DNA of 64,000 nt, taken from Candidatus Woesearchaeota archaeon (GTDB lineage Archaea > Nanobdellota > Nanobdellia > Woesearchaeales > SM23-78). The notes beneath the pieces were generated by a model that saw nothing but the letters and a program-made list of their open reading frames with translations, was not told the origin of the DNA and did no database searches. The stretch is from contig JAHWIP010000003.1 in assembly GCA_019322375.1 (NCBI GenBank), positions 6,792 through 70,791 of the forward strand. Reading direction: 5' to 3'. A program made the translations under genes and the position numbers. Below, in pieces: positions 32,755-46,639 of the stretch (positions within the stretch are counted from its first letter, which is position 1; every line of letters begins with the position of its first letter).

Positions 32755-33042
32755 ATGGATAAAAAAGCCCAGGGTCTGAGTATGAATGTTATTATAATAG
32801 CAGCAATAGCTCTTTTAGTGCTTATCATTCTTGCTGTTCTTATCCTGAGAGCAGGTAAAGGAGTGACTGAAGGTACAGGGTGCAGAGGTGTTGGAGGAAT
32901 TTGTTATTCTAGCTGCACAGACTTGATTGAGGACAGAGGCGGAATGTGGGTTAAGAATCTTCCTAACAGCGGAAAGAATGGTGGCTGTTCAATAGACCAG
33001 GTTTGCTGTGTTGAACTATTAGAAACACCTGAGGATTACTAA
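32755..33042 (+). CDS. Small Cys-rich type IV pilin-like protein (major pilin candidate 1)
   Basis: 95 aa; MDKKAQGLSMNVIIIAAIALLVLIILAVLIL class III signal-like; C-terminal 6-Cys module ending QVCCVEL. Confidence 0.55.
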   Translation: MDKKAQGLSMNVIIIAAIALLVLIILAVLILRAGKGVTEGTGCRGVGGICYSSCTDLIEDRGGMWVKNLPNSGKNGGCSIDQVCCVELLETPEDY

Positions 33043-33044
33043 AA

Positions 33045-33335
33045 ATGAAGTTCTTGAATAATAAGAAAGGAGTCCAGCTAACCCTTTCTACAGTGGTTAT
33101 TGCAGTGCTTGTAATCATTGTGCTCATAGTGTTGATAGTGATTTTTACCCAGGGAACAGGCTTGTTCAACATAGGAATAACCAGCTGCGCTGATAGGGGA
33201 GGTAATTGTAATTACGAATCAGCAGATCAATGCGTTGATACTGGCGGCAGTGTTTACAGGTTTGGCAAGTGCACCGACGGGGTTTGCTGTATTCCTAAGG
33301 ACAAGCTTTCAGGGCAAGATGATAATCAAGACTAA
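33045..33335 (+). CDS. Small Cys-rich type IV pilin-like protein (major pilin candidate 2, tandem paralog)
   Basis: 96 aa; MKFLNNKKGVQLTLSTVVIAVLVIIVLIVL; C-terminal Cys module ending GVCCIPKD. Confidence 0.55.
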   Translation: MKFLNNKKGVQLTLSTVVIAVLVIIVLIVLIVIFTQGTGLFNIGITSCADRGGNCNYESADQCVDTGGSVYRFGKCTDGVCCIPKDKLSGQDDNQD

Positions 33336-35157
33336 TAAGAAGAGGGCTGAGCTCACTATAACCCAAGTAGTACTCATGGTTCTGGGTGTAGTTGTTCTTA
33401 TTGTGCTGCTTTTTGTTTTGAAAATAATACCCACAGGAATTAGAAGTCTTACGAGCTGCTCTGACTGGGGGCAGTGCAGGCCAGGAAATGTTTGCGCACC
33501 AAATGAATACATAAAATTTGAAGCAAAGGATGACTGTCCTGCAAACCATGTGTGCTGCGTGCCTACAACCACAAGGCCAGGACCTCTTCAGGATTTTAAT
33601 GAAAAAGAGCTTGAATACCTGAGAAATGCTATTATCATAAAGCTTAACAATGACCCTACGCCTATAAGCGATGTAGCAAGCCTTAACTTAAAAGTTGATA
33701 CTAATTATACATTTCGTATAAGTATTAATGATAAGCTCACCAAGGATAAAAAAACAAGTGAAAAGCTTGGCCCTTGCGCTGTTTATGTGGTTGACACAAG
33801 AGAAGCAGGCAAGAAATATTTATTAACAAATAAAGGCTGGGACTTGATTCTTTCTGACAAAGAGATTGATTTGAGCGGCATAGAGCTGGCTGAGTGCACT
33901 GAAGAAAGCATTAGGTTAAAAAAATATTCTCCTTCACTAAATGATGTTTACAAGGACTTGGTGCTGTATGTTATTCTTTTGGATAAGGAAGTTGTTGATG
34001 CACTTGAAGTATTAGAAACACACGACCCTGGCTTTGTTAAACTAACTGCTCCTGGGTTTGGCAGTGGAATTAATCTCCCTGATAGGGGGATGGCAGCTTT
34101 TTATAATCTCACAACAATGTACAGCAATGTTGACCACTGGCTTGCTTACAGAGCCATAAGACTTAATGTTGAGCCAGTAGTCCAGATTAGTGGTATGAGC
34201 GGAATATGGGTTGACAAGGACCCAATAACCATATCCTGCCCTGATGTTACCTGCATCAGGTTTGGCTTAAAACTAGTGAAACTAAAAGACAATGATTATT
34301 TACAGTTGGTAGAAGAGTGCAAGAAGCCAGAAGGCTTTAAGTACACTCTTGATTATGTTGCAGGAACAACAACAAAAACAACAGGCATACCATTGAACAT
34401 TAATATTGGAGGTTTCAGGATTCCTCCTCAAAGACAAAAACTCCAGTACATTGTAAGCCAAAAACCAATAACTGTTGTTAATAATAAAGCAGATGTTTTG
34501 ATTGACAGGGCTACCATGCTAAAAACCTTTTACTCAGGAGACCACGAGTTATTAATCGAGGACACTACTTATCTTTGCGTAGAAGCCACCAAGGATGACG
34601 GCTCAAAGGTTCATGGGCTCTCAGAGCAGCCTATTAAAGTGGATGTTTTTCCGCCCATGGTTGACCCTGACAAGGATGTGCAGTTATTTTATCCAGACCC
34701 AGTGATCTCATCAGACATATCAACCCCTTATTATTACAGGAAGTACCCTAAGATTGTTGTTTCTGGATGCTATGATTATGGCCAGAGCGGATGCACTAAT
34801 TATGATTACTATATTCATTCAGGAGAATTTGTTAATCTAAGGTCTCTGACAGCAGAGTGGGAGATAGGAATTGCTTCTTTGATACTAACAGAGGGCTTGA
34901 ATGCCCTGCTCACTTATTTTGCAGAAAAAGATGCTGTCAACACTATATGCCCGTTTATAACCAGCCATTCTTACACAAGAAACACCCGCAATGAGATAAG
35001 AATCCCAAGGCAAGGGCAGGGCATAATATGCATCAGGGTTAGTGACAAAGTAGGCAACAAAGACATTATCTGGAAGGTGCTCTGGACACCTGAAGAGATG
35101 TTCAAGAAAATTATTGCAGAAGGAGTGGCAGAGGCAGAAGAAGCAGTGACTGGATAG
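33319..35157 (+). CDS. Large pilin-like secreted protein (N-terminal module paralogous to small pilins)
   Basis: Start at MIIKTNKKRAELTITQVVLMVLGVVVLIVLL; same Cys module (..NHVCCVP) then about 500-aa extracellular region. Confidence 0.5.
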   Translation: MIIKTNKKRAELTITQVVLMVLGVVVLIVLLFVLKIIPTGIRSLTSCSDWGQCRPGNVCAPNEYIKFEAKDDCPANHVCCVPTTTRPGPLQDFNEKELEYLRNAIIIKLNNDPTPISDVASLNLKVDTNYTFRISINDKLTKDKKTSEKLGPCAVYVVDTREAGKKYLLTNKGWDLILSDKEIDLSGIELAECTEESIRLKKYSPSLNDVYKDLVLYVILLDKEVVDALEVLETHDPGFVKLTAPGFGSGINLPDRGMAAFYNLTTMYSNVDHWLAYRAIRLNVEPVVQISGMSGIWVDKDPITISCPDVTCIRFGLKLVKLKDNDYLQLVEECKKPEGFKYTLDYVAGTTTKTTGIPLNINIGGFRIPPQRQKLQYIVSQKPITVVNNKADVLIDRATMLKTFYSGDHELLIEDTTYLCVEATKDDGSKVHGLSEQPIKVDVFPPMVDPDKDVQLFYPDPVISSDISTPYYYRKYPKIVVSGCYDYGQSGCTNYDYYIHSGEFVNLRSLTAEWEIGIASLILTEGLNALLTYFAEKDAVNTICPFITSHSYTRNTRNEIRIPRQGQGIICIRVSDKVGNKDIIWKVLWTPEEMFKKIIAEGVAEAEEAVTG

Positions 35158-35321
35158 CAAGTTAACTTAACATCTCCCTTCTTAATAAAACCGAAAGTTT
35201 ATTATAATTCTGTTATGATAGATTAGGATATGAAAAAAGGAGATTTGTCAACACTGGCAACTGTTATAATTATATTATTAACTCTTGTGTTTATAATCTT
35301 TATTTTCGGAAGAATCTATGG

Positions 35322-36299
35322 GTGGTGGGGTTGAAAAGGATGAGCAGGATTAATAAAAAAGCAGGATTAAGCACATTACAAACAATTATCATTATCCTGC
35401 TCATATTTGTTGTTCTATTAATCTTTTACCAGGACTTAAGAGCAACTCTGTTAAAAAAATCTAACAGAGAGATATGCAGGGCTACTGCTCTTGCCCAGTC
35501 TGTTGCTGTGTGGGCGCCTGAAGGAGAGAATTTGGTTAGTCTTGAATGCAAGACTTACAAGGTTGTGTTTTTTGAAGACCATGTTGAGATTAATGATGAA
35601 ATAATTGAGGTGTATGACCCCAGGAAAAAAGATGTTGTTAAAAAGTTTAATGGCTTAACAGAGGACATTGTTAACTGGGTGATTGCAGAGGAGCTCAGAT
35701 GGTGCTGGTGGCAGTTTCTTGAAGGAAAAAAAAGCTTGTTAAACATGAAGAACTTTTTTGGCTCAGCAGAAAGAACCTGTTTTTTATGCACTGAAATAAC
35801 TTTTGATGAATCAGTTAAGACTGATGAATTCAAAAACTTCTTTAAGTACACCAAGGAAAAAACAATGCCTAATTCTGAAATGACTTATTACCAGTACTAT
35901 GCTGAGGAGCCCAGGAAGTGCATCTGGAGGTATGAAGAGATTATTGATGCAGATAATTGCTGGGAAGCCTATGCACAGGGCATCTCGCCTAATATAATAA
36001 CCAGCACTGTACAGCATTTTAAAGAGGCATTTAGCCATTGCTCAGGCATAATACCTGCTCTTTCAACTTACTGGTCTTCTGTAACGCATTATAGTGTTGT
36101 TAAAAACATAACCTTTGAGAAAGATAAAAAGTATGCTGTGACTTTTGTAAGGGAAGGAGCAACCTCAAGGCATCTTGAGCTAGAAAAATTAGTAAAAGGA
36201 GAGACTGATTGTTTTTTTGAAACTTATTTTTCATATGTAATCCCTTCTGATGAACTAGGAAAGCACTGCGGCCCTGTGAGAAGAGGCTCTATGAAATAA
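35322..36299 (+). CDS. Pilin-like secreted protein
   Basis: MSRINKKAGLSTLQTIIIILLIFVVLLIF (KKAG|LSTLQ class III motif); 325 aa, Cys/Trp-rich. Confidence 0.5.
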   Translation: MVGLKRMSRINKKAGLSTLQTIIIILLIFVVLLIFYQDLRATLLKKSNREICRATALAQSVAVWAPEGENLVSLECKTYKVVFFEDHVEINDEIIEVYDPRKKDVVKKFNGLTEDIVNWVIAEELRWCWWQFLEGKKSLLNMKNFFGSAERTCFLCTEITFDESVKTDEFKNFFKYTKEKTMPNSEMTYYQYYAEEPRKCIWRYEEIIDADNCWEAYAQGISPNIITSTVQHFKEAFSHCSGIIPALSTYWSSVTHYSVVKNITFEKDKKYAVTFVREGATSRHLELEKLVKGETDCFFETYFSYVIPSDELGKHCGPVRRGSMK

Positions 36300-36300
36300 A

Positions 36301-37197
36301 ATGAACAAGAAAGCCATTGTGTTTGACAAACTCATGACAGCTGTTCTGATAATCATTGTGCTGGCTGTTTTTATTTTTTTCCTGGTAAAGATAAAAATCC
36401 ATGCCTTAAAAATTGTTGAGGATTCTGAGTGCAAAGCAAGCATTATCAGCCATGCAACTCTTTTAAGGGTGACTGGAGAAGACACAACACCAGACATTCA
36501 CTGCCCTACCAAATATTATACTCTTCCAAAAGAAAGCAATGAAGAAATAAAGCATTATATTGCTGATTCATTAAAGACCTGCTGGGGAACCTGGGGCAAA
36601 GGAGAGCTTCAGTTATTTAACCAGCAAGGCTATTACTGCCATGTGTGCTCTGTGATTGATTTTGATGATAAAACAAAAAAAATACAAGGCCTGAACAATT
36701 ACCTGATTAATACGCCAACAGATAAAGATACCCCTCTCACATACATGGACTACCTCACAGGTTATGCATCTGAAAAAGCAGACCCTGCATTAATACAAGA
36801 GGTTCAGGAAAAAGGTTTTTCAGACACCATACACACTTCAAAGCCTTATGCAGTCATGTTTGTTTATGCCAAAGGAAAAACAGGTGTTAAAGCATTTCTT
36901 GATGGCATGGATGCTCTTGGCCTGGGAACAACAGGAGGAGGAATCACTACAGGGCTTGCACTGGGCTCAGCAGCAGGCATAGGGCTGGCAGCAGCAGGAG
37001 TGGCAAGTGGTGGAGCAGCAATTGTTATAGCAGGAGCAGTCACAGCTGCTGGCGGAGTGATAGGCTATATAACAGCAGATGATACTCACTGGATAGCCCT
37101 TACATTGTTCACAGAATACAATGCTGAAACCCTGAAAAGCATTGGGTGCGAGATAGCCCCTGCAAAGCAGGACAGAAAAACTGATGAAACTGGTTAA
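36301..37197 (+). CDS. Pilin-like protein with C-terminal Gly/Ala-rich glycine-zipper segment
   Basis: MNKKAIVFDKLMTAVLIIIVLAVFIFFLV; C-terminus GLGTTGGGITTGLALGSAAGIGLAAAGVASGGAAIVIAGAVTAAGGVIGYI. Confidence 0.45.
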   Translation: MNKKAIVFDKLMTAVLIIIVLAVFIFFLVKIKIHALKIVEDSECKASIISHATLLRVTGEDTTPDIHCPTKYYTLPKESNEEIKHYIADSLKTCWGTWGKGELQLFNQQGYYCHVCSVIDFDDKTKKIQGLNNYLINTPTDKDTPLTYMDYLTGYASEKADPALIQEVQEKGFSDTIHTSKPYAVMFVYAKGKTGVKAFLDGMDALGLGTTGGGITTGLALGSAAGIGLAAAGVASGGAAIVIAGAVTAAGGVIGYITADDTHWIALTLFTEYNAETLKSIGCEIAPAKQDRKTDETG

Positions 37198-37280
37198 AAA
37201 ACTTAATTTGGTGATTTAGTTAAAGCGAAAGCATTAAAAAACACAAAAGCATAAAAAATCTTGAAACAAGAGGTTTTAAC

Positions 37281-37442
37281 ATGAGTTATGGCATGAACCG
37301 TATGAACAAGAAAGCCCAGGAAACAATGAGTCCTGAAGGCGGCACACTAAGAATAATATGGTTTGTGATTGTCTTATTAGTACTTATTATTATTGTTTAT
37401 TTTGTTGCAACAAATTTTAAACTAATCAAACTGCCATTTTGA
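37281..37442 (+). CDS. Small membrane peptide (53 aa) within pilin cluster
   Basis: MSYGMNRMNKKAQETMSPEGGTLRIIWFVIVLLVLIIIVYFVATNFKLIKLPF; below ORF-track cutoff. Confidence 0.3.
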   Translation: MSYGMNRMNKKAQETMSPEGGTLRIIWFVIVLLVLIIIVYFVATNFKLIKLPF

Positions 37443-37451
37443 GGTTAAGAA

Positions 37452-38285
37452 ATGAAGCTGATAAATGCTATTGGTGCCATTGTTTTAGGATTGTTTGTAT
37501 TAATTATACTAATCCTGATATTTGTTCCAAACACATTCAAAATTGTTAATAATATCTTTCTTATTATTGGCCAACAATTAGGCTTTAACCCAGCAGTTCC
37601 TGGAGGTGAAGACTATGGCTTTGGAGGGCTTTATGGAAGCACACCATCAACTATTCCAACTGATGCTGAGCCAGAGCGTATTAAAAAAGTCAAAACAAAG
37701 CCAGGCATTCCTGTTGATGAAAAATATTTTGGAGAGCTCTACTCTTATTCCAGGGAAGGAGCACTTGTTGACACCATTGTACTGCACCACACAGGGGATA
37801 ATAAAGCTTCGCAAACATTCAATACTCTGAAAAAAAGAGAGCTTTCAGTGCATTATGTTGTTGACAAGGACGGCACAATATATTACTTGATAGATGAGAG
37901 CACAAAAGGCGCTCATTGCGGTTGCTGCCCGCCAAGCAACCCGACTTGTTGCAAAGCAGGAGAAAACTGTCCTGTTTGCCTGAATGAAGAATTAAGAGAA
38001 ATGAATGCCAAATCAATAGGCATTGAAATTGTTAACACAGGATATGCAGATGATTACTACACTAATGAGCAATATGTTTCAATAGATAAACTGATAAATG
38101 ATATTGCAAGCAGATGGACTGCTATTGCTGTTGATAATGAGCATGTGCTTGGGCATTACCAGATTACACTGGGTAAGTGGGATCCTTCACCTGTTTTTAA
38201 ATGGGCAAGAATACAAGGATTGTCAGGCCACTTAATGCTTGCAGACATAGGAAAAAAAGCACCCTCTGAATACGGCTATACATGA
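37452..38285 (+). CDS. N-acetylmuramoyl-L-alanine amidase (Amidase_2/PGRP domain) with pilin-like N-terminal anchor and Cys-rich insert
   Basis: TIVLHHTGDNKAS..LSVHYVVDKDGTIYYLIDESTKGAHCG..NAKSIGIEIVNTG..VLGHYQI..KWDPSP = Amidase_2 signature; N-term MKLINAIGAIVLGLFVLIILILIFV; insert CGCCPPSNPTCCKAGENCPVC. Confidence 0.8.
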   Translation: MKLINAIGAIVLGLFVLIILILIFVPNTFKIVNNIFLIIGQQLGFNPAVPGGEDYGFGGLYGSTPSTIPTDAEPERIKKVKTKPGIPVDEKYFGELYSYSREGALVDTIVLHHTGDNKASQTFNTLKKRELSVHYVVDKDGTIYYLIDESTKGAHCGCCPPSNPTCCKAGENCPVCLNEELREMNAKSIGIEIVNTGYADDYYTNEQYVSIDKLINDIASRWTAIAVDNEHVLGHYQITLGKWDPSPVFKWARIQGLSGHLMLADIGKKAPSEYGYT

Positions 38286-38352
38286 GTTTGTGACAGAGCA
38301 TTAAAATACACTGAGACACATTAAAATAATAGCAAAGTTTATATACAAAGAT

Positions 38353-39081
38353 TTGCAAGAATTATATGAGATGAAACCCTTGTTTTCAAAGAATAAAAAA
38401 AAGAAAGGCTTGTCAACCCTTGGAACCATTATAGGACTAATACTTTTACTAGCAGTCCTGGCAATCTTTCTTCCGGTTATTCTTCGCGCAGGCAAAACAA
38501 CTGATGAAGTCCCCAAAGACATAATGGACCCTGTCAAGGCATGCCATGGAAAAGAGAGTGGTGAGGAATGTTATCTTGGCGGAATAGCTGGTTTTTGCAG
38601 GGATTTCAGGTGTGTTATAGAGACTTCAGCAAAAAACATGAAAGAATCAATAACTATTTTCAAGACAACTTTCAAGGACAGCATTGAGAATTGCCAGAAA
38701 GATGTAGCCCAGTGCCCTGAGGCAACAAAGGCTCTGGACTTAATGATTGGTTATTTCACAGATGCAGGGCTTGTTGTTCATAGATTAGCCTCAGACAGAG
38801 CAGAGTTCAGGCTATACCAGGAAAAAAACTTTTTAGGTATTGGAGGGCATAAAGCCTCTTTTGTTTTTTACGGCGATACTTGTGTAATAGAGAAGAAAGG
38901 GGATAATGATGTTCCTACATCGGGCAAAAACTTTAAGCTTGGGATCAAAAAAGAAAGCAAAGGTTTTGTAGTATATGACCTTGAAAAAACTGCTGCTGAA
39001 CTAGGCACTTTTATATCTTTCAGGCATCAAACCCAGAATGATGCAACCACCCCGGTCTGTGTTTATTACACTACAGATTAG
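38353..39081 (+). CDS. Pilin-like secreted protein
   Basis: MKPLFSKNKKKKGLSTLGTIIGLILLLAVLAIFL (KKG|LSTL); 6 Cys. Confidence 0.5.
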   Translation: MQELYEMKPLFSKNKKKKGLSTLGTIIGLILLLAVLAIFLPVILRAGKTTDEVPKDIMDPVKACHGKESGEECYLGGIAGFCRDFRCVIETSAKNMKESITIFKTTFKDSIENCQKDVAQCPEATKALDLMIGYFTDAGLVVHRLASDRAEFRLYQEKNFLGIGGHKASFVFYGDTCVIEKKGDNDVPTSGKNFKLGIKKESKGFVVYDLEKTAAELGTFISFRHQTQNDATTPVCVYYTTD

Positions 39082-39154
39082 CAATGCTAAAATAAATTTT
39101 ATTATCATAAAATATTTAATTATTAAAAAAAATTGATTGCAAAGGTGAACTATT

Positions 39155-39808
39155 TTGTTAACAAAATCAAGAAAAGGACTTTCCCTTTTAGGAATGCTTG
39201 GTGGTGTAATCATAGTAGTTGTACTGGTTATTGTTCTAATCAATATTTTCATTAACAGAGGAGCCAAGCCTCTGGAGAACATCACTGGAGAGATAATTAC
39301 CTGCGGAGGACTTGCAGGTGTTATTGGCGGGGGAGAAGGGGTTTGTATAAGCAAAAGCACTCTTTGCGACGGCCCAAAGCTTCCTAATCCTGAGTGCAAG
39401 GCTAGCAATCCTGACAAGCCTTATTGCTGTTTTAAACAAGCAGAGGGTGCTGAAGGCCCTCCTGGTTCTGGCCCGACGGCTTGTGTTAAGGATGTTGACC
39501 CCTGGGAACCTGTAATTGTTGAAGACGATTATGTTTGCGCTTCTAGTAAGGAGGCGTGCGAGCAGACTATGAATTTTGTTAATGTTCTGAATGAATGTGC
39601 TCAATTTAGTGAAGGTTGTGAATGCAAGGATGAAGTAGAAGGAATTGAGCACCCTTGTGAAGGCAATCTTAAATGGGCTCTTTTTGGCCTTGATAAATCT
39701 GAGCCTAAACATGAAGTTGTTATGAAATGCTATCCTGCTGTTAAGGAATGCGAGGATTCAAATGAATGTGAGCGTTGTGTTCCAAACCATTTTGAATGTG
39801 CAGAATAA
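39155..39808 (+). CDS. Pilin-like Cys-rich secreted protein
   Basis: MLTKSRKGLSLLGMLGGVIIVVVLVIVLI; about 20 Cys. Confidence 0.5.
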   Translation: MLTKSRKGLSLLGMLGGVIIVVVLVIVLINIFINRGAKPLENITGEIITCGGLAGVIGGGEGVCISKSTLCDGPKLPNPECKASNPDKPYCCFKQAEGAEGPPGSGPTACVKDVDPWEPVIVEDDYVCASSKEACEQTMNFVNVLNECAQFSEGCECKDEVEGIEHPCEGNLKWALFGLDKSEPKHEVVMKCYPAVKECEDSNECERCVPNHFECAE

Positions 39809-39872
39809 TAACTCTGTTAATTCTTCCCCACCGAAACAAATTTATACTTATTAAGCAAGTTTCTTATGTATT

Positions 39873-41027
39873 ATGGCTTGGATGAATAAAAAAGGCGGTG
39901 AAAGACAGATTGGACTTAGCGAACTTACGCTTTATGTGTTTGTCATTCTGCTTATAGTTGTCTTATTTATTGTTAGCTATAGGTTTATCGGAGCTTTTCT
40001 CAGAGGAGGAGTTGATAAAGACACTGAGTCTAATTTTGTGTCACTGGCAGAGAACCTTGAGTTAATGATTGAGAAAGACGCAGGGTTTGAATACCAGACC
40101 ATGATTTTTTATATGAAAGAAAAGCATTTTGTGTTTGGCTTTACATCCAAGCAGGCTCTTTCCTCTTCTCCAGCAAAGCATTTTATGCCTGAGAAATGCA
40201 ATGAGCACTCATGCCTTTGCCTGTATAAAGAACCTGATGATGTAGCAGATGACAAGCCTGTCAAGTGCATATCTTTTGGGCACAAGGTTATTTTTCATGG
40301 CTATGACTTAAAAAAAGTGTCTGCTGCTCAGCTGGTTTATCCTGACCTAGGAGCAGAGCTGGGTGCGCGTGAGCAAGGAGAATCTTATTATTTATCTGAT
40401 TATCCTGAAACTATTTCTTTTTATATAGAAGGCTTGTTTATTGGCCCTTCACTAGACAATCCTCATGACCTTTACCTGGAAAAAATAGTTGCTAATAACA
40501 GGGTGCATGTTTTTGTGACTCCTGGCCTTAAGCAGGAAATGATAGAGACAAGGATTGAACTGTTATCTCCCTGCCCTTTTGATTCTGATGAAGAATGCAT
40601 GGGCAAGAGAAGAAACTCTGTTCTGGGCAGTAATGATTATTGTTTTTATGATGAGAGCCAGGCTAAGTGCTTGTTAAAAAAAGATGTGGATGCCTGTTCT
40701 TTCTCAGACAGAATTACACAGCCCTGTCTTTGCGGCTCTACATTTATAGACCCAGACACCAGGACAGAAGAAACCTATTGTTATCAAAAATCTGATAAAA
40801 GGATTTTTGTCCTTCCATTTGACTGCGATTCAGAGGAATTAAGAGAAAAAAAATGCCTTGCTTACTGCAGGGCAATCACTGATACAGAGGACTGCGACAC
40901 AAGAGAACAGGATTACTGTGATAAAGACCCTTGCGAGTTTGCTTCTAAAGAAAAGCCGTGCGAAGTGCGCCCATTAGGCAAAAAAACTTATTGTGCTTCT
41001 TACTCAAGGGATTACAGCATGGATTAA
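39873..41027 (+). CDS. Pilin-like Cys-rich secreted protein
   Basis: MAWMNKKGGERQIGLSELTLYVFVILLIVVLFIV; about 25 Cys. Confidence 0.5.
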   Translation: MAWMNKKGGERQIGLSELTLYVFVILLIVVLFIVSYRFIGAFLRGGVDKDTESNFVSLAENLELMIEKDAGFEYQTMIFYMKEKHFVFGFTSKQALSSSPAKHFMPEKCNEHSCLCLYKEPDDVADDKPVKCISFGHKVIFHGYDLKKVSAAQLVYPDLGAELGAREQGESYYLSDYPETISFYIEGLFIGPSLDNPHDLYLEKIVANNRVHVFVTPGLKQEMIETRIELLSPCPFDSDEECMGKRRNSVLGSNDYCFYDESQAKCLLKKDVDACSFSDRITQPCLCGSTFIDPDTRTEETYCYQKSDKRIFVLPFDCDSEELREKKCLAYCRAITDTEDCDTREQDYCDKDPCEFASKEKPCEVRPLGKKTYCASYSRDYSMD

Positions 41028-41113
41028 TAATAGTTGCTTGGATTAATAATAATTATTAGTAATTGTTCTAAAAACCTAAATCTTTTTAAACTCGTTTATC
41101 AACAATTTAAGTT

Positions 41114-41596
41114 ATGAGTTTTTATGATTTTAATAACAAGAAAGCCAGGAGCATGATTGCAACTTCTTTTTATGTATTATTTGGCTTGATGCTGGGAGCC
41201 TTTTTTGTGATAGCTGTTCTTGGAAGAGTTAAGGATGCTGTTGGTGATTCTGCTTATCATAAAAAGTTTTATTCCAGGGACCTGGCCTTGCTTGTTGATG
41301 CCTTGCATGCCAGCAATGGAAAGTTTGTTGTTGATTATGATGTTAATCTTCCAGACAACATGCTCCTGGACTTTGGTCTTGAGCCTGGAGCAGTCATCTT
41401 AACAGACCGCTCTGACACACTCATGGATAACAGGCATAAAACTGCTTTTTTGTTTGGGCATAATGATTATGTAAAAATAATTCCTGTCACAATTGACAAG
41501 AACATGCTTAAATTGTTAGTGGTGGCTGATAACAACACCATTACATTTGAAGAGAAAGGGATGGATGATTTAAGTACAAATGATAAAGAGGAGTGA
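41114..41596 (+). CDS. Pilin-like protein
   Basis: MSFYDFNNKKARSMIATSFYVLFGLMLGAFFVIAVL. Confidence 0.45.
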   Translation: MSFYDFNNKKARSMIATSFYVLFGLMLGAFFVIAVLGRVKDAVGDSAYHKKFYSRDLALLVDALHASNGKFVVDYDVNLPDNMLLDFGLEPGAVILTDRSDTLMDNRHKTAFLFGHNDYVKIIPVTIDKNMLKLLVVADNNTITFEEKGMDDLSTNDKEE

Positions 41597-41629
41597 TTTA
41601 AGTATAAATGATTTAAGCAAAGAATAAGG

Positions 41630-42169
41630 ATGAGAATAATAAAAAAGAGGCTGAGCCTGAATAACAAAAAGGGGTTGGGAACTGAGGAGTGGCTTGAACT
41701 TCTGCCTTACATAGTGTTAACAGTGGTTGTAATGGTGGCTATTTTTGCCCTGATAAACCTTTTTGTTAATATTTCTGTTGATGTTAAGCCTGTTCAAAGG
41801 GAAGTTCTTTTCTACAGGCTGATGTATGCTCCTAACTCAATTATGTATATGGATAATCTTACTGGCAGGGTTCACCCTGGTGTTATTAGCTGGGATAATT
41901 TTACCAACCAGACCCTTGACAAATCTATTGCTTATGATTATGAAAGGCATATATCTGCAAAATTGATATTATATAACCTGGAAAAAGAGCCAATCAAAAC
42001 AGCTTATCTTAATGGGCTGTGGTTTAACCGCTTAGAGCCTTTGGCCAGGAGCAGGATTAAGGGTGCAGGCAGTGCAGAGCTCTACACCAAGAAAATCCCT
42101 GTTGTTTACAGGAGAAATGATGTGAACAGGGCAGGCTATCTTAAAGTTGAGATTATCATTCCAAACTAA
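41630..42169 (+). CDS. Pilin-like protein
   Basis: ..NNKKGLGTEEWLELLPYIVLTVVVMVAIFALI (KKG|LGTEE, Glu at +5 as in bacterial T4 pilins). Confidence 0.5.
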   Translation: MRIIKKRLSLNNKKGLGTEEWLELLPYIVLTVVVMVAIFALINLFVNISVDVKPVQREVLFYRLMYAPNSIMYMDNLTGRVHPGVISWDNFTNQTLDKSIAYDYERHISAKLILYNLEKEPIKTAYLNGLWFNRLEPLARSRIKGAGSAELYTKKIPVVYRRNDVNRAGYLKVEIIIPN

Positions 42170-42184
42170 CAGCGAGTGATTTGA

Positions 42185-42853
42185 ATGAGCAGTTTGATTA
42201 ATTCAAGAAAAGGCATGAAAACCATTGTGACAATATTATCAGTTGTCTTGTTAGTATTCATATTCATAATATTTATTTTTCTTTTCAGGCTTGGCGCCAG
42301 GAACAAGGCAGAAAGCATAGAATCAGATTTTTCCTCTGTAAGAACAGAGTTTTTGCTTAAAACCTTTTTAAGAACACCAGCTGTTATTAGTGATGATTAC
42401 CCTGTTGAAGACTTGTTCCCTGGCATAGGAGAAGGCATTACCAATGCAGACCTGGTATCATGGACATGTAGTAAGGATAAAGACAGGAATTACAAGACCT
42501 TGAAAAACTCAATAAACACTTTTTTTGATGAGGCATATGAAGATGACTGGGAAGCATGGATAATCTATTCTAATCCTAAAGTAAAAAAGAAGGGCTTTGG
42601 GCACAAGAGTTATCTTGAAGGGATTGAGAAAAGCATAAACCGCTTGCTAACAGCAGGACAGCTGGCTTTGCTAGCAGCCAAATCATCAGACCCAGCCAGC
42701 AGGGGATTAATCTTCAAGCTTTTTATAACTCCTTATCGTGAAGCAGGCTTTGGCTCCCAGGTGGTTCCTTGCCCAGACGGAGAACTAGCCCAGATAATGC
42801 TTTACTCCCACACAGCATTTATTGAAATAAAACACCTGAAAGGCTTAACATAA
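42185..42853 (+). CDS. Pilin-like protein
   Basis: MSSLINSRKGMKTIVTILSVVLLVFIFIIFIFLF. Confidence 0.45.
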   Translation: MSSLINSRKGMKTIVTILSVVLLVFIFIIFIFLFRLGARNKAESIESDFSSVRTEFLLKTFLRTPAVISDDYPVEDLFPGIGEGITNADLVSWTCSKDKDRNYKTLKNSINTFFDEAYEDDWEAWIIYSNPKVKKKGFGHKSYLEGIEKSINRLLTAGQLALLAAKSSDPASRGLIFKLFITPYREAGFGSQVVPCPDGELAQIMLYSHTAFIEIKHLKGLT

Positions 42854-42865
42854 GATAAAATAAAA

Positions 42866-45800
42866 ATGGATAAAGTAAAACTGAGATTAAAAAACAGAAA
42901 AGCACAGGTTTACCCGCTTTTTGTAGTGGTCTTTACAATAGTGGCCTTGACAACAGCCCTTATTGGCTTGAGCAATGCAAAAGAGGTTACTGATTTATCT
43001 GGCAGGGAAATGCTTATCGGCACCAAGCAATCAGCTGTTTTTGCATCTCTTCAAGACGCAGATGCTGTTAGTTTATTCATAGAGCAGGCAGCAGAATTTG
43101 CAGGCCAGCAAGCCCTGGATAAAATAAGAAAATCATGCTTTTTTGGAGTTGATGAGGAACAAGAAGTTGATGAGTGGGAGTCTCCATGCGGCAAGTTTGT
43201 TTATCCTCTTTGGAGCACTAATGAAAATCTTTGCCTTCCTGATTGTGAAACAGCTTTTGTCAATGCCTTTAACAAGGATTTTTTAAGCCGAACAAACAAG
43301 TATTATGAGTTCACAAACATAGAGCTGCCTATTTCTTATAACATGAGCCTGGAAATACATGACAATCATTTTTTTGTTCATGGAACCTCTGACACAGAAC
43401 TAAGGATTAATGTGGTTGATATTCAGAGCAGGATTAAGTCTCCCCTGGCAATAGCCCAGACTTATGAGGAAGGCAGGCTTATCTGGCCTGTTGATTACTC
43501 TGACCACACAATCACCTCTTGCTTTGGTGAAAGAGATGTTGTTGGGGGGAGCAAATACCATCCTGCTGTTGATATCCGGGCTCCAAAAGGAACACCAGTG
43601 CTGGCAGCTGCTTTAGGAAAAGTGATTCTTACTGACCCTTGCTGGGGAAGAATTGTTATTAATCATGGCTCTGGCTTAAGCACAGAGTATCTTCACTTGG
43701 AAAAAATTGATGTTAAGGTTAATGATGATGTGGTGCAGGGACAAAGAATAGGAACTTCTGGCAGCAATGGCTGTGACACAAGAGAGTTTGTTCCGCACCT
43801 GCATTTTGGGGTTATATATCAAGGTGTTCAGTCACCCATGCATTATAAAGGGCAGGAAATAGTTTTGAGCAACAACCATATCCAGCCCATGTGCTTGATT
43901 GAAAAAGGGTATGCTGCTAAGCCAGAAAGCAACTGCAACCAGCTTGTGAACACAGACTTAGACAAGATTTGTGAATTGTATAATCTGCCAGAAGAATTTT
44001 TTGAATCATCAGAATCATCAAAGCCATCAGAGCCATCAGAACCAGACCAAGACACTTCTTCTGAAGAAAGTGCTGATGCAGAGAATGCTGGTGCAGAAAG
44101 TGTTAATGCAGAAAGCACTGAGCTGGATTATTCTCTGGCACAGGCTCCTGGCAGCTATGCTTTTAAACCATCTTTTACCTTGAGGGTTAACAAGAAAATA
44201 GAAAACCCTATTGAGCCAGTAACAGAGTGGTTTGAGAACACCTGGAACGAGTGCGAGGATGACCCTTGGAAATGTTTAAGAGAAAAAATGAGTGAGTTTA
44301 ATGAGCAGGACTATGATTACAAGCTCATGTTTGCTGACAGGTGCGAGGAAGGCTATCACTTGTTCTATGACATACTGGAGTTTTTTGAGGACTGCTTTTC
44401 AAACCAGAAGTATGGGTGCTCATGCGAGTTTAATTTATCAGATGCTTTTTCAATAACTGACTTGCGAATAGTTTTTGACACACAAGCAAACACAGCCTCT
44501 CTTTTTTCCAAGCAGGGAGATAAGCCTGGTGATGAATATGAATTAATTGATTCATACCAGTTCTATTATGGAAGCATAACCAAGCCAGCCCCTGCTTCTC
44601 CTTATAGGTATTATGTGTATCAGCTTGATTATGATGATTATGGGGAGCTGGAAAATGCAGAGCTTATGCAAATGAAGTCATTGCTTGATGTATTTGATGT
44701 TGTGCCTTTTTTTGATTACAAAGAACTAAGACTGGCAAAGCCAGGAGAGGCTGAGCAAGGATATTTTGTGAACACAGAAACAATTCAGTGCAAGTACAAG
44801 AAGAACAAGTTCAGGCTGTGTGCAAAGCCAGCACAGGAAAGAGAAGACTTGTTCCCTATAAGGTTTGCTTTTCACTTAAAAGACAAGCCTCCTGAGCCTG
44901 TTAAAAAAGGAGATGTGGAAATTATAGAGGTGGAGGAGAGTTCTGAGTCAGATGTTGACAAGGTAATGCAGGCAGCAGGCTTTCTAGGAACCATATTCCC
45001 TCCTCTAGGCTACTTGTTCACAGCAATTAATATTCTCAGTGTGTTGGAAGACTTTAAACCAAGAAAGTTCGAGGTAATAGTTGATGTTCCTCTTGACAAG
45101 GATGGCAAACCCCTGGATGTTGCTGGCTATGAAGTTTATTGCAGTGATTACCTGACAAACATCCTGCCAGTGGATGTTTTGGATAAATATAATCCAAGTC
45201 ATTTTGTTGTGATGGCTAATGATGAGATGAATAAAAAAGTAAGCCAGCTAGACCAGTATGTTAAGAAGAACCCTTACACAGACTTTCTGAATCTTGAGAG
45301 CTGTGATGTGCCTGTGAGCAAGTTCACAGGAGAAACCATTCTTGTGCCTGGAATCAAAGGGGTTGTTAAGGACGGTAAAATGGTTTTCAACCTTCATAAA
45401 TGCGGGGACTTGGCAATAATTATAGATAAACTAATAAGAAAAGACTACTGTGTATCACTAATACCTGTTGACAAGAATGGCAACAAGATAATGGAGCATG
45501 CTGTGAGCAACTGCGCGCAAACCAATTCACTGCTTGACCTGGTTATTAGTGAGATGATAGAGGAACAGCTAGGAGAATTTATTCCTGCAAGCCTTATACC
45601 TGATAATTTAAAGCCTTATATCAAGCTGCCTGACACAAGCGATATTGTTAATGCAGTAACAGGGGAAGGCAGTTTTGACATGATAGACATTGTTAATCTT
45701 GACAAGCTGGACGCAGACATAAAAAATTATCTTGAGGAATTCGTGGTTGGAACTATTAATGAAGACATAATAGGCACTTCTGTTGTTAATTCTATTGATG

Positions 45801-46639
45801 ACTTAAAGCTCTGGGAAAAACAAACAGTGCTTAACACCCTGTCAAACCAGATAAAAAATGATGATGCAAAAACCTTGTTTGATGCCTTTGTAACAGGAGA
45901 AGGTGTTGCTGAGTCTGCCAAGCGCATGGCTTATGAAAAAGGAGTAGGATATATAGACCAGACAAAAACACCTGAGATACTTAAGGAGATAGCCAAAGGA
46001 GAAGACCCTAAAAGCCTTGCATACCAGGAACTGGTAAAAGCAGCTGAGAAAGAGCTCAGCACTGACGAGAAAAAACAGGCTCTGCTGGAGATAGCCAGGA
46101 GCAGCAGTGGAAGAGAGGTAAAAGATAAGATAATAGAAAAAGCCCTTGAAAAAGGATGCGGCGAGTCATATGGAATAAGTGCAGAGCAGGCAATCAACTG
46201 CCTTGACAATGAAGAGGTAGAAAATATTTATCACAAAGTTCTGACAGACTACAGCACACCAGACAAGGTAAAACAGTTTTTGCTTGACAAGGCAATTGAC
46301 AAGTTTGATGAAAAAACACCAGACGTGCTAAAAGAGATTGTTCTGAAAAGAGACTTTAAAGGAGCAGCAAAGGACATGCTTGAGAAAGAGCTTGACAAGC
46401 TTCCAGACGCTGTTAAGAAAGAGTTTATTACTGATATACTTGAAGGCAGGCTTCCAGATGTTGAGTACTTGCAGCAGGAACTAGTGAAAATGATACCAGC
46501 AGTAAACAATGAATATGTGAATGCCCTGCTAAAAGACGGCAATGTTAAAAACCTGATAGAATCAACCCTTAAATCAGAGATAGAAAAACAACTAGGCTCA
46601 TTCTTCTCAGATGAATGCGTGGCAATTAATAAGGATTGA
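42866..46639 (+). CDS. Giant pilin-like secreted M23 (LytM-type) metallopeptidase
   Basis: 1257 aa; N-term MDKVKLRLKNRKAQVYPLFVVVFTIVALTTALIGL; M23 motifs YHPAVDIRAPKGTPV (HxxxD) and VPHLHFGV (HxH) at about residues 230-320; acidic Ser-rich linker; long K/E-rich helical C-terminus. Confidence 0.8.
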   Translation: MDKVKLRLKNRKAQVYPLFVVVFTIVALTTALIGLSNAKEVTDLSGREMLIGTKQSAVFASLQDADAVSLFIEQAAEFAGQQALDKIRKSCFFGVDEEQEVDEWESPCGKFVYPLWSTNENLCLPDCETAFVNAFNKDFLSRTNKYYEFTNIELPISYNMSLEIHDNHFFVHGTSDTELRINVVDIQSRIKSPLAIAQTYEEGRLIWPVDYSDHTITSCFGERDVVGGSKYHPAVDIRAPKGTPVLAAALGKVILTDPCWGRIVINHGSGLSTEYLHLEKIDVKVNDDVVQGQRIGTSGSNGCDTREFVPHLHFGVIYQGVQSPMHYKGQEIVLSNNHIQPMCLIEKGYAAKPESNCNQLVNTDLDKICELYNLPEEFFESSESSKPSEPSEPDQDTSSEESADAENAGAESVNAESTELDYSLAQAPGSYAFKPSFTLRVNKKIENPIEPVTEWFENTWNECEDDPWKCLREKMSEFNEQDYDYKLMFADRCEEGYHLFYDILEFFEDCFSNQKYGCSCEFNLSDAFSITDLRIVFDTQANTASLFSKQGDKPGDEYELIDSYQFYYGSITKPAPASPYRYYVYQLDYDDYGELENAELMQMKSLLDVFDVVPFFDYKELRLAKPGEAEQGYFVNTETIQCKYKKNKFRLCAKPAQEREDLFPIRFAFHLKDKPPEPVKKGDVEIIEVEESSESDVDKVMQAAGFLGTIFPPLGYLFTAINILSVLEDFKPRKFEVIVDVPLDKDGKPLDVAGYEVYCSDYLTNILPVDVLDKYNPSHFVVMANDEMNKKVSQLDQYVKKNPYTDFLNLESCDVPVSKFTGETILVPGIKGVVKDGKMVFNLHKCGDLAIIIDKLIRKDYCVSLIPVDKNGNKIMEHAVSNCAQTNSLLDLVISEMIEEQLGEFIPASLIPDNLKPYIKLPDTSDIVNAVTGEGSFDMIDIVNLDKLDADIKNYLEEFVVGTINEDIIGTSVVNSIDDLKLWEKQTVLNTLSNQIKNDDAKTLFDAFVTGEGVAESAKRMAYEKGVGYIDQTKTPEILKEIAKGEDPKSLAYQELVKAAEKELSTDEKKQALLEIARSSSGREVKDKIIEKALEKGCGESYGISAEQAINCLDNEEVENIYHKVLTDYSTPDKVKQFLLDKAIDKFDEKTPDVLKEIVLKRDFKGAAKDMLEKELDKLPDAVKKEFITDILEGRLPDVEYLQQELVKMIPAVNNEYVNALLKDGNVKNLIESTLKSEIEKQLGSFFSDECVAINKD

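What the first reader, a model, noticed from the sequence alone, without database searches (positions are those of the whole stretch)
37452..38285. Pilin-anchored Amidase_2 with an inserted poly-Cys segment
The full Amidase_2/PGRP signature (HHTG, HYVVD-DG-IY, GAHC, SIGIEIVNTG, GHY, KWDP) follows a pilin-like N-terminal helix. A Cys-dense insert (CGCCPPSNPTCCKAGENCPVC) sits right at the usual zinc-ligand position. The insert could be an extra metal site or a disulfide staple suited to an extracellular life.
Basis: partly seen in the sequence, partly recalled or inferred. Interest (0 to 1): 0.7.

Follow-up and report, generated by a model that had tools for sequence, protein, structure and literature searches.

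The report
Archaeal peptidoglycan amidase with cysteine loop
This is an intact bacterial-cell-wall-cutting enzyme (MurNAc-L-alanine amidase) encoded by a tiny Woesearchaeota archaeon that has no such wall itself, sitting in a conserved cluster of pilin-like surface-protein genes together with a second wall-cutting enzyme; its cysteine-rich segment is a lineage-specific, probably disulfide-stapled surface loop, not a change at the catalytic zinc site.

Summary
The ORF (37452-38285, +, 277 aa) is real. It is 100% identical to an NCBI protein already annotated as N-acetylmuramoyl-L-alanine amidase of a Candidatus Woesearchaeota MAG. It is an AmpDh2/AmiD-type Amidase_2 (Pfam E=4e-25; AF2 pLDDT 89; Foldseek AmpD/AmpDh2/AmiD). 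Zinc ligands (H112, H235, D244), catalytic E192 and K242 are all intact.

The cysteine segment does not sit at a zinc-ligand position. It replaces the variable loop after the non-ligand His155. It is also not unique: loops with 2, 4 or 6 Cys occur at this site across a large uncharacterised clade (67 even versus 7 odd Cys counts). The other exported products of the operon all carry even Cys counts. This favours disulfide staples over a second metal site.

"Pilin-anchored" is only partly right. This protein has a plain N-terminal membrane helix, but 13 of the 14 consecutive genes (32755-46639) begin with a [KR][GA]+hydrophobic prepilin-like motif, and many orthologues do too. The operon ends in a 1257-aa catalytically intact M23 peptidase and is syntenic in other Woesearchaeota. 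In relatives the amidase is fused into that M23 giant, or to SLT or glucosaminidase domains.

Most likely role: a tethered extracellular enzyme attacking bacterial murein. New variant of a known kind.

The parts
37452..38285 (+). Amidase gene, 277 aa. 100% identical to an NCBI protein named 'N-acetylmuramoyl-L-alanine amidase [Candidatus Woesearchaeota archaeon]'.
37455..37577 (+). N-terminal hydrophobic membrane helix (res 2-24) plus a second helix (res 28-42). It has no [KR][GA] prepilin motif and is probably an uncleaved signal-anchor.
   Evidence: AF2 secondary structure; motif scan; orthologue N-termini with KKG/KG motifs
37578..37703 (+). Flexible Gly/Pro/Thr-rich linker (res ~43-84; pLDDT <50 at res 44-48 and 50-54).
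37704..38282 (+). AmpDh2/AmiD-type Amidase_2 catalytic domain (res ~85-277; Pfam match res 106-247), including a conserved C-terminal tail ending GYT.
37785..37787 (+). His112, first zinc ligand (HHT motif).
   Evidence: invariant in 71 homologues; aligned to the AmpDh2 IVLHYTS motif
37917..38000 (+). Cys-rich loop, res 156-183 (CGCCPPSNPTCCKAGENCPVC + LNEELRE). Seven Cys at 156, 158, 159, 166, 167, 173 and 176. It replaces the HAGxSxWxG loop of bacterial AmiD/AmpDh2.
   Evidence: pLDDT 83-95
38025..38027 (+). Glu192, catalytic general base (aligned to AmpD chain residue 116).
   Evidence: alignment; invariant
38154..38183 (+). His235 (zinc ligand), Lys242 and Asp244 (zinc ligand), in GHYQITLGKWD.
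   Evidence: aligned to AmpD chain residues 154/162/164; conserved in nearly all of 71 homologues
37281..37442 (+). 53-aa mini-pilin-like ORF (NKKA|QET... + hydrophobic helix) immediately upstream. 46-55 aa counterparts lie upstream of the amidase in L001, L003 and L005, and a 43-aa one occupies the same operon position in L090.
32755..46639 (+). Co-directional 14-gene cluster. 13 products start with [KR][GA] followed by a ~20-residue hydrophobic helix (prepilin/class-III-signal-like). The cluster is syntenic in other Woesearchaeota and is bounded by the RNase P RNA and the RPA gene.
   Evidence: synteny
42866..46639 (+). 1257-aa pilin-signal-like giant protein with a Peptidase_M23 domain (res 231-321). 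The HPAVD and HLH zinc motifs are intact.
   Evidence: the orthologue P0181 carries an Amidase_2 domain inserted after M23
41630..42169 (+). 179-aa pilin-like protein. Its family has invariant K13 and G15, then Glu at +4/+5 and a hydrophobic helix.
   Evidence: no fold match

Best explanation
The gene encodes a membrane-tethered, extracellular, zinc-dependent N-acetylmuramoyl-L-alanine amidase of the AmpDh2/AmiD branch of Amidase_2, made by a Woesearchaeota (DPANN) archaeon. An N-terminal hydrophobic helix holds it in the membrane, and a ~40-residue flexible linker lets the catalytic domain reach outward. Zn bound by His112/His235/Asp244 polarises the MurNAc-L-Ala amide bond, Glu192 activates water and Lys242 stabilises the transition state (inferred by homology). 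The 7-Cys segment is an elaborated version of an ancestral Cys-containing loop. It replaces the HAGxSxWxG loop of bacterial homologues. It is most likely locked by three disulfides, tentatively 158-166, 159-176 and 167-173, with Cys156 spare, which would rigidify an exposed loop in a disulfide-rich exoproteome. The enzyme works as one module of a conserved 14-gene cluster of pilin-like surface proteins. That cluster also supplies an intact M23 endopeptidase and, in relatives, GH73-like, SLT or glucosaminidase modules. Because the producer has no murein, the substrate is most likely the wall of bacteria it attaches to, feeds on or competes with. Shown here: domain identity, residue conservation, fold, loop distribution, synteny and fusions. 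Inferred: topology, disulfides, target organism, and any assembly into a pilus-like structure.
For: Amidase_2 at E=4.3e-25. Closest solved relatives are AmpDh2 (E=3e-11; with the profile, 3e-26), AmiD, AmpDh3 and AmpD. The AF2 model has pLDDT 88.8 and pTM 0.80, with Foldseek top hits AmpD, AmpDh2 and AmiD. The catalytic and zinc residues are conserved in essentially all of 71 homologues.

The contig is archaeal. It carries archaeal RNase P RNA, RPA, RadA, tRNA-intron endonuclease and TrmB, and NCBI names it Woesearchaeota.

Across 74 loops with at least 2 Cys, counts are even in 67 and odd in 7. Operon products carry 6, 6, 16, 10, 6, 8, 18, 20, 2 and 26 Cys, all even, against 0.4-0.8% Cys in cytoplasmic proteins.

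Thirteen of 14 consecutive products have a prepilin-like N-terminus. The p179 family has invariant K/G and Glu at +4/+5. The full operon is syntenic in L001, L002, L003, L005 and L090, and the amidase-upstream-of-RPA arrangement is kept in six further Nanoarchaeota loci.

Fusions link the modules. P0181 is the orthologue of the window's M23 giant (54% identity on both flanks) with an Amidase_2 domain inserted after M23. SLT+Amidase_2 and Glucosaminidase+Amidase_2 fusions also exist. In L090 the same anchor carries a GH73-like domain.

The literature already proposes that Woesearchaeota and Nanoarchaeota use murein hydrolases against bacteria (PMC8204110, PMC9723730, PMC12352652).
Against: No enzymatic or localisation data exist. 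No peptidoglycan-binding domain is present. No pilin HMM or pilin fold match was obtained for any operon protein. No secretion ATPase, platform protein or prepilin peptidase was found among the roughly 45 window ORFs scanned. The amidase itself lacks the [KR][GA] motif.

This protein has an odd number of Cys (7). Its nearest relatives have 5 or 7, so a strict all-paired model does not fit. A CPxC motif is also typical of zinc knuckles. Many Woesearchaeota live in anoxic habitats, where extracellular disulfides are less expected.

The host or prey is unknown.
Confidence: 0.6

Rival explanations
1. The Cys-rich loop is a second, structural or regulatory metal site (for example Zn(Cys)4 built from C158/C166/C173/C176, or a poly-thiolate Cu/Zn cluster) rather than a disulfide knot. 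The enzyme is otherwise as described.
For: The commonest form of the loop in the wider clade has exactly four Cys with a CPIC/CPVC knuckle-like motif (C-x7-C-x3-C-P-I-C). The window protein has CPVC and an odd Cys count, and its near relatives have 5 or 7 Cys. Parity is not required for metal binding. AF2 gives the loop a confident, ordered conformation (pLDDT 83-95).
Against: Two-Cys loops (for example HAGCRSGVQGELAC, HITCQADAC, HAGCMASDPKC) and six-Cys loops with very different spacings occupy the same site. Two Cys cannot make a Zn(Cys)4 site. Parity is 67 even to 7 odd. P0002 and P0003 lack both C167 and C173, as expected for loss of one disulfide pair, and thereby lack the CxxC. The other exported proteins of the operon all have even Cys counts.
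Confidence: 0.25
2. The amidase (and the M23 peptidase) are wall-opening accessories of a type-IV-filament/Tad-like apparatus, inherited together with pilus genes. In bacteria they cut the cell's own murein so that the filament can pass. In the archaeon they are retained for a different, self-directed envelope function or are functionally vestigial.
For: Bacterial members of the Cys-loop clade lie inside Tad loci. P0115 (L084) and P0136 (L089) come directly after Flp (48 aa), TadE and a TadG-like gene. P0095 (L088) lies between a T2SSE ATPase and Peptidase_A24. Two others lie close to a LysM-M23 gene (next gene in L085, three genes away in L086). Cell-wall hydrolases are known to assist assembly of pili and secretion systems (PMC6403190).
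Against: Archaea of this group are not known to have murein, so there is no self wall to open. The catalytic residues are strictly conserved in more than 70 archaeal homologues, and the locus is syntenic across divergent Woesearchaeota, which argues for a retained enzymatic function. Archaeal relatives stack several different murein-lytic domains on one protein (M23+amidase, SLT+amidase, glucosaminidase+amidase), which looks like a degradative tool kit rather than a discreet gate-opener.
Confidence: 0.1
3. The domain is a non-catalytic peptidoglycan-recognition (PGRP-like) adhesin that only binds bacterial walls.
For: Many PGRPs share the fold without activity, and the protein is tethered at the cell surface.
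Against: All residues needed for catalysis in the AmpD/AmiD branch are present and conserved (H112, E192, H235, K242, D244). Non-catalytic PGRPs typically lose a zinc ligand (established knowledge).
Confidence: 0.03

Closest known systems
AmpDh2 / AmpDh3 (Pseudomonas aeruginosa) and AmiD (E. coli): exported Amidase_2 murein amidases
   Same: Best sequence and fold matches (4bj4 E=3e-11, and 3e-26 with the profile; 2bh7/3d2z). Same His/His/Asp zinc triad, same Glu and Lys. They act outside the cytoplasm and are tethered to a membrane.
   Different: The bacterial enzymes are lipoproteins or periplasmic proteins with a C-terminal PG_binding_1 domain and an 18-residue HAGxSxWxG...N loop. Here there is an N-terminal helix anchor, no binding domain, a 34-residue loop (H155-S188) with seven Cys, and an archaeal producer without murein.
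AmpD (cytoplasmic 1,6-anhydro-MurNAc-L-Ala amidase)
   Same: Fold (2y2b E=2.5e-9) and catalytic residues aligned to chain positions 116/154/162/164.
   Different: It scores 54 bits against the 143-bit cut-off of NCBIfam equivalog NF008758, so it is not an AmpD orthologue. It is exported rather than cytoplasmic.
T7 lysozyme / animal PGRPs
   Same: Same Amidase_2 superfamily fold.
   Different: The third zinc ligand is Asp (KWDP), not Cys. The catalytic Glu of the SIGIE strand is used in place of the T7-type Tyr. This rests on established knowledge plus the sequence.
Uncharacterised bacterial 'Cys-loop' Amidase_2 clade (HVxC-x7-C-x3-CPIC), partly encoded in Tad/Flp pilus loci
   Same: The Cys loop starts at the same H-x-x-C position. 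An N-terminal hydrophobic anchor plus Pro/Thr linker is present. Genes neighbour pilin/pseudopilin genes or M23 genes. In a loop-masked NJ tree this clade sits closer to the archaeal clade than the AmiD-like clade does.
   Different: These proteins have four Cys (or two) rather than seven, an extra 20-25-residue insertion after the SIGIE strand, and bacterial hosts that possess their own murein.
Giant extracellular lytic-transglycosylase proteins of Woesearchaeota/Pacearchaeota, and modular archaeal peptidoglycan hydrolases
   Same: Same organisms and the same proposed biology: archaeal enzymes directed at bacterial walls (PMC8204110, PMC9723730, PMC12352652).
   Different: Those reports concern GH23/SLT domains, or hydrolases that carry a wall-binding domain. 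They do not mention amidases, and M23 only as Halobacteriales/Nanoarchaeia zoocin A homologues (term searches). This amidase has no binding domain, so it would have been excluded from the 2025 survey by design.
Sulfolobus bindosome (functional surface proteins bearing class III pilin-type signal peptides)
   Same: The concept of non-filament 'working' proteins that share pilin-type N-termini and are encoded with small pilin-like genes (PMC4858521).
   Different: The bindosome carries sugar-binding proteins, is crenarchaeal, and has its assembly ATPase and membrane protein identified. Here the cargo is murein hydrolases and no assembly genes were found in the window.

Membership tests
Amidase_2 (PF01510; N-acetylmuramoyl-L-alanine amidase type 2) | Profile HMM match above the curated threshold | tested here: met
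   89 bits against a 26-bit cut-off, E=4.3e-25, profile positions 5-131 of 131
Amidase_2 (PF01510; N-acetylmuramoyl-L-alanine amidase type 2) | Three zinc ligands (His, His, Asp/Cys) in place | tested here: met
   H112, H235 and D244. H235 and D244 align to AmpD chain residues 154 and 164. All three are conserved in essentially all of 71 homologues. That these positions bind zinc is established knowledge from the AmpD/AmiD structures.
Amidase_2 (PF01510; N-acetylmuramoyl-L-alanine amidase type 2) | Catalytic Glu (SIGIE strand) and Lys (K-x-D-P) of the AmpD/AmiD branch | tested here: met
   E192 and K242 align to AmpD residues 116 and 162. E192 is invariant and K242 is at least 90% conserved.
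Amidase_2 (PF01510; N-acetylmuramoyl-L-alanine amidase type 2) | T7-lysozyme-type alpha/beta fold | tested here: met
   AF2 pLDDT 88.8. Foldseek hits are AmpD, AmpDh2, AmiD, phage endolysins, PGRPs and T7 lysozyme, with 31 hits at E<=1e-3.
Amidase_2 (PF01510; N-acetylmuramoyl-L-alanine amidase type 2) | Hydrolysis of the MurNAc-L-Ala bond | not testable with these tools
   Requires an enzyme assay.
AmpD equivalog (NCBIfam NF008758) | Score above the equivalog cut-off | tested here: not met
   54.4 bits against a 143-bit cut-off. It is related to AmpD but is not an AmpD orthologue.
PGRP / T7 lysozyme subtype | Cys as the third zinc ligand | tested here: not met
   The sequence reads GKWDP (Asp244), where T7 lysozyme and PGRPs have Cys. 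The subtype definition comes from established knowledge and PMC5725095.
Archaeal type IV pilin-like protein (class III signal peptide) | [KR]-[GA] cleavage motif directly preceding the hydrophobic helix | tested here: not met
   The amidase N-terminus MKLINAIGAIV... has no such motif. Thirteen neighbouring products and many orthologues (for example P0004 KKG|MT, P0013 KG|VI) do have it.
Archaeal type IV pilin-like protein (class III signal peptide) | Match to pilin or class-III-signal HMMs, or to a pilin fold | tested here: inconclusive
   No Pfam or NCBIfam pilin hit for the amidase or nine neighbours. The AF2 model of p179 has a long N-terminal helix plus an alpha/beta head, but no PDB match at E<1e-3. 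Pilin head domains are notoriously divergent.
Archaeal type IV pilin-like protein (class III signal peptide) | Cognate prepilin peptidase, ATPase and platform protein; actual N-terminal processing | tested here: inconclusive
   None were found among the roughly 45 window ORFs scanned. The rest of the genome is not available, and processing needs experiment.
Peptidase_M23 (partner gene 42866-46639) | HxxxD and HxH zinc motifs plus an HMM match | tested here: met
   PF01551 at 76.5 bits. HPAVD and HLH are read directly in the translation.

The most novel reading that the evidence does not exclude
Woesearchaeales carry a conserved type-IV-filament-like surface apparatus whose pilin-like subunits include the murein hydrolases themselves (amidase, M23, and in relatives GH73/SLT/glucosaminidase). 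This would be a 'cell-wall drill' that lets a wall-less DPANN archaeon attach to and breach bacterial hosts. The Cys-loop amidase plus mini-pilin module would be shared across domains with bacterial Tad/Flp loci by ancient transfer, and the extra unpaired Cys156 next to the active-site region could act as a redox or metal switch.
Probability: 0.25. Interest if true: 0.75.

Novelty: new variant of a known kind. Interest (0 to 1): 0.5.

Why it matters
The hosts and lifestyle of Woesearchaeota, one of the most widespread DPANN groups, are unknown. Published hints of bacterial targets rest mainly on lytic-transglycosylase domains. This locus adds a small, soluble-domain, catalytically intact amidase that could be expressed and tested on defined peptidoglycan chemotypes. 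It lies in a vertically conserved operon with an M23 endopeptidase and interchangeable murein-lytic cassettes. That makes the question 'do these archaea attack bacteria, and which ones?' experimentally approachable. It also points to a possible link between pilin-like secretion or assembly and wall degradation that also appears in bacterial Tad loci. The Cys-stapled loop is of secondary interest, for enzyme stability and possibly specificity. It is not a change to the catalytic metal site.

Tried and rejected
- **Insert at a zinc ligand.** Rejected by alignment to AmpDh2 and AmpD.
- **Unique poly-Cys insertion.** Rejected. A profile search and an exhaustive representative search show 2/4/6-Cys loops at the same site in many proteins.
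- **Phage endolysin or prophage origin.** Only seven phage records match, at 31% identity or less and about 50% coverage. The context is chromosomal and syntenic.
- **HMM evidence for pilins.** Pfam and NCBIfam scans of the neighbours gave nothing.
- **Fold evidence for a pilin.** The AF2 model of p179 had no significant PDB match, and the afdb50 library was unavailable.
- **Pilus machinery in the window.** No assembly ATPase, platform protein or prepilin peptidase was found.
- **Locating the loop relative to substrate-binding residues.** I tried the AmpD/AmpDh2 structure papers (not held) and the PGRP Lys/DAP specificity residues. From my recollection of the PGLYRP1 sequence, those residues lie upstream of the conserved His, so the idea was dropped.
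- **Cys-Cys distances.** They could not be measured because model coordinates are not exposed.
- **Taxonomy of the bacterial Cys-loop clade.** It could not be determined.
Full report
**Observation.**

The window holds an ORF at exactly 37452-38285 (+), 277 aa. The Cys-dense string HCGCCPPSNPTCCKAGENCPVC occupies residues 155-176, and its seven cysteines are the only ones in the protein.

Pfam Amidase_2 matches residues 106-247 at E=4.3e-25, 89 bits against a 26-bit cut-off. The identical protein is already in NCBI as 'N-acetylmuramoyl-L-alanine amidase [Candidatus Woesearchaeota archaeon]' on a 71-kb contig.

The window is clearly archaeal. It carries:
- archaeal RNase P RNA at 32269-32573;
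- an RPA-type OB protein, RadA, TrmB, tRNA-intron endonuclease and tRNase Z.

GC content is 31-41% throughout, with no compositional break at the gene.

**Catalytic apparatus.**

phmmer against PDB sequences finds P. aeruginosa AmpDh2 (4bj4, E=3e-11) and C. freundii AmpD. A family profile raises AmpDh2 to 3e-26 and adds AmiD, AmpDh3 and T7 lysozyme.

In those alignments:
- IVLHHTG pairs with AmpDh2 IVLHYTS;
- E192, H235, K242 and D244 pair with AmpD chain residues 116, 154, 162 and 164.

From the AmpD/AmiD literature (my knowledge: Liepinsh 2003; Genereux 2004; Carrasco-Lopez 2011), these positions are the general base, the second zinc His, the catalytic Lys and the zinc Asp.

H112/E192/H235/K242/D244 read HEHKD in 67 of the 71 homologues; the exceptions are two truncated sequences, one K-to-N change and the divergent P0070. 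An AlphaFold2 model built on that alignment has pLDDT 88.8 and pTM 0.80. Its best PDB fold matches are AmpD, AmpDh2 and AmiD, then phage amidase endolysins, PGRPs and T7 lysozyme.

This is a catalytically competent-looking amidase of the AmpDh2/AmiD branch. It is not an AmpD orthologue (54 bits against the 143-bit NCBIfam cut-off). It is not of the Cys-ligand T7/PGRP subtype either.

**Where the cysteine segment sits.**

It follows His155, the conserved His of the 'WHAG' motif, which is not a zinc ligand. It ends before N185-x2-SIGIE.

- In typical bacterial AmiD/AmpDh2-like proteins this is an 18-residue loop, HAG-x-S-x-W-x-G-x4-N.
- In most Woesearchaeal homologues it is only 9 residues (HAKGWNARS).
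- In the window protein and about 15 of the 71 first-round homologues it is 26-34 residues and carries cysteines.

The statement that the insert is 'right at the usual zinc-ligand position' is therefore wrong.

**The loop is not unique.**

I searched with a profile of the insert-bearing sequences and ran an exhaustive phmmer search of 1.84 billion cluster representatives (35 hits at E<=1e-30). These searches show a large, uncharacterised clade with Cys loops starting at the same H-x-x-C position:
- a four-Cys form, HVxC-x7-C-x3-CPIC;
- a second four-Cys form, C-x4-C-x3-C-x4-C;
- many two-Cys forms;
- CC-x6-C-x2-C forms;
- six-Cys forms;
- the five- and seven-Cys forms, found only in the window's nearest relatives.

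Among loops with at least two Cys, 67 have an even count and 7 an odd one. All 25 newly sampled representatives are even.

P0002 and P0003 lack C167 and C173 together, as expected for loss of one disulfide pair. The DSSP string of the model shows isolated beta-bridges at residue 159 and at 175-176. This is compatible with C159 and C176 being neighbours.

Independently, the other Cys-containing products of the operon carry 6, 6, 16, 10, 6, 8, 18, 20, 2 and 26 Cys. All ten counts are even, which has a chance probability of about 0.001. Cytoplasmic proteins of the window have 0.4-0.8% Cys with mixed parity.

I therefore favour a disulfide-stapled loop, tentatively 158-166, 159-176 and 167-173, with Cys156 unpaired. 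A structural metal site remains possible. The CPVC motif and the odd count argue for it; the two-Cys and variably spaced loops argue against it.

A crude neighbour-joining tree with the loop columns masked was also informative.
- It scatters the Cys-loop archaeal sequences among short-loop ones.
- It places the bacterial Cys-loop clade closer to the archaeal clade than the AmiD-like clade is.

This suggests the loop is ancestral, was repeatedly deleted, and was further elaborated here.

**N-terminus and neighbourhood.**

The protein begins with a hydrophobic helix (res 2-24), a second helix (28-42) and a disordered ~40-residue linker. It lacks a [KR][GA] motif.

It sits, however, in a compact co-directional cluster of 14 genes (32755-46639). 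The other 13 products all begin with [KR][KR]?[GA], up to 14 residues, and then an ~18-20-residue hydrophobic stretch. A 53-aa mini-pilin-like ORF lies immediately upstream (37281-37442). Counterparts of it occur in L001, L003, L005 and L090.

Many orthologues of the amidase do carry KKG, KG or KA before their helix. The p179 family (41630-42169) has invariant K13 and G15, and Glu at +4/+5 after the Gly, like bacterial prepilins.

Against this:
- no pilin HMM matches any of these proteins;
- the AF2 model of p179 (pLDDT 81; long N-terminal helix plus alpha/beta head) has no significant PDB match;
- no assembly ATPase, platform protein or prepilin peptidase was found in the scanned part of the window.

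'Pilin-like operon' is thus a motif-level inference, and 'pilin-anchored amidase' is only partly supported.

**Functional linkage.**

The last gene of the cluster (42866-46639, 1257 aa) carries a Peptidase_M23 domain with intact HPAVD and HLH motifs.

The whole operon, from the two ~95-aa Cys-knot pilin-like genes to the M23 giant and the downstream RPA gene, is syntenic in L001/L002 and L005. Its first six genes, through the amidase, are also kept in L003, where the contig ends. L090 keeps the operon from p325 through the M23 giant. The amidase-upstream-of-RPA arrangement persists in six more Nanoarchaeota/Woesearchaeota loci.

The fusion evidence is strongest:
- P0181 (1489 aa) is the orthologue of the window's M23 giant, 54% identical over both the first 390 and the last 834 residues. 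It has an Amidase_2 domain with a four-Cys loop inserted after M23, exactly where the window protein has an acidic linker.
- In that genome (L090), the gene in the 'amidase slot' keeps the same anchor (MDIVLALIFLILIILAVFPG...QSLGF). It carries a sub-threshold but full-length Glucosaminidase/GH73 match instead (E=3.6e-4).
- Other relatives fuse Amidase_2 to SLT or Glucosaminidase domains, or place it at the C-terminus of 860-1900-aa proteins.

Such stacking of amidase, endopeptidase and glycosidase modules is the hallmark of murein-degrading enzymes (PMC6403190). It makes peptidoglycan the only sensible substrate.

**Bacterial parallel.**

Of six bacterial Cys-loop amidases whose contigs I examined:
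- two follow Flp (48 aa), TadE and a TadG-like gene (L084, L089);
- one lies inside a Tad locus between a T2SSE ATPase and Peptidase_A24 (L088);
- two lie close to a LysM-M23 gene (next gene in L085, three genes away in L086);
- one has no such context.

In bacteria this probably reflects local opening of the cell's own wall for filament assembly. In a murein-less archaeon, the same pairing of pilin-like genes with a Cys-loop amidase must serve something else.

**Mechanism proposed.**

The enzyme is an extracellular, membrane-tethered Zn amidase that strips stem peptides from MurNAc. It acts together with the M23 endopeptidase, and in relatives with glycosidases, on the walls of bacteria. Its exposed loop is rigidified by disulfides.

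This fits published proposals that Woesearchaeota, Pacearchaeota and Nanoarchaeota use murein hydrolases against bacteria (PMC8204110, PMC9723730, PMC12352652). Those papers concern lytic transglycosylases, or hydrolases with wall-binding domains. They do not mention amidases or a pilin-like operon, and M23 only as zoocin A homologues in Halobacteriales and Nanoarchaeia. The 2025 survey would have excluded this protein by design.

My confidence by step:
| Step | Confidence |
|---|---|
| Amidase identity | ~0.9 |
| Extracellular tethering | ~0.8 |
| Foreign murein as target | ~0.65 |
| Disulfide staple | ~0.6 |
| Assembly into a pilus-like structure | ~0.35 |

**Verdict.**

The protein is an already-annotated member of a known enzyme family in a lineage where murein hydrolases have been noticed before. 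The Cys loop is a lineage-specific elaboration of a widespread feature, away from the catalytic metal.

What is not described in the papers I could search is the conserved pilin-like operon with interchangeable murein-lytic modules, and its echo in bacterial Tad loci. I rate it a new variant of a known kind, with interest 0.5.

Noticed in passing
window 48092-50200 (-): A 701-aa protein with bacterial sigma-70 regions 1.2, 2, 3 and 4 on an archaeal contig. Sigma-70 genes in Woesearchaeota have been reported before, with no anti-sigma partner known (PMC8204110).
   Followed up: partly
window 32755-33042, 33045-33335 and the N-terminus of 33319-35157 (+): Three paralogous modules: a pilin-like N-terminus followed by a small six-Cys domain ending in VCC[VI]P (C...C...C...C..CC spacing). 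They open the operon, and no family match was found.
   Followed up: partly
L090 10001-14470 (P0181) and L090 4819-5508: In a syntenic relative the Amidase_2 domain sits inside the M23 giant protein. The gene in the amidase's usual slot keeps the same membrane anchor but carries a sub-threshold GH73 glucosaminidase-like domain (E=3.6e-4). This is cassette exchange of murein-lytic domains.
   Followed up: yes
L084 6446-8921; L089 3999-5870; L088 133-6857: Bacterial four-Cys-loop Amidase_2 genes are embedded in Tad/Flp pilus gene clusters (Flp, TadE, TadG-like, T2SSE ATPase, Peptidase_A24). In L084 and L089 the cluster is followed by Rad52, SSB, RadC and DnaN genes, and in L084 also a DUF6094 helicase, suggesting a mobile element.
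   Followed up: partly
window 38220-38282 (res ~257-277) and homologues: Nearly all archaeal homologues end in a conserved tail ...LxxLGKxxPxxxGY[PSTA]-COOH. It is modelled with pLDDT >90. Its function is unknown; it could be a docking or autoregulatory element.
   Followed up: no
window 31196-31633 and 31621-32199 (-): An overlapping HEPN-domain and nucleotidyltransferase gene pair (a toxin-antitoxin-like module) next to the RNase P RNA gene.
   Followed up: no
window 5472-9744 (+), 53740-54135 (-) and 58923-61412 (-): Further proteins with [KR][GA]+hydrophobic N-termini lie outside the operon. They include a Cys-rich 538-aa protein (30 Cys) and an 829-aa Peptidase_C25 protein. This N-terminal type may be the general export or anchoring signal of this organism's surface proteome.
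   Followed up: partly
L005, L008, L027: Three MAG contigs titled 'uncultured Methanosarcinales archaeon' encode a homologue of the Woesearchaeal amidase, and L005 also carries the operon from the 95-aa genes through the M23 giant to RPA. They are probably taxonomically mislabelled bins.
   Followed up: no
L004 6755-10492, L012 6851-10495, L013 7943-10528, L049 7085-10456: In several Nanoarchaeota/Woesearchaeota genomes the amidase is the C-terminal domain of 860-1245-aa proteins. One contig (JBBSWH010000006.1) carries two copies, one giant and one short.
   Followed up: partly
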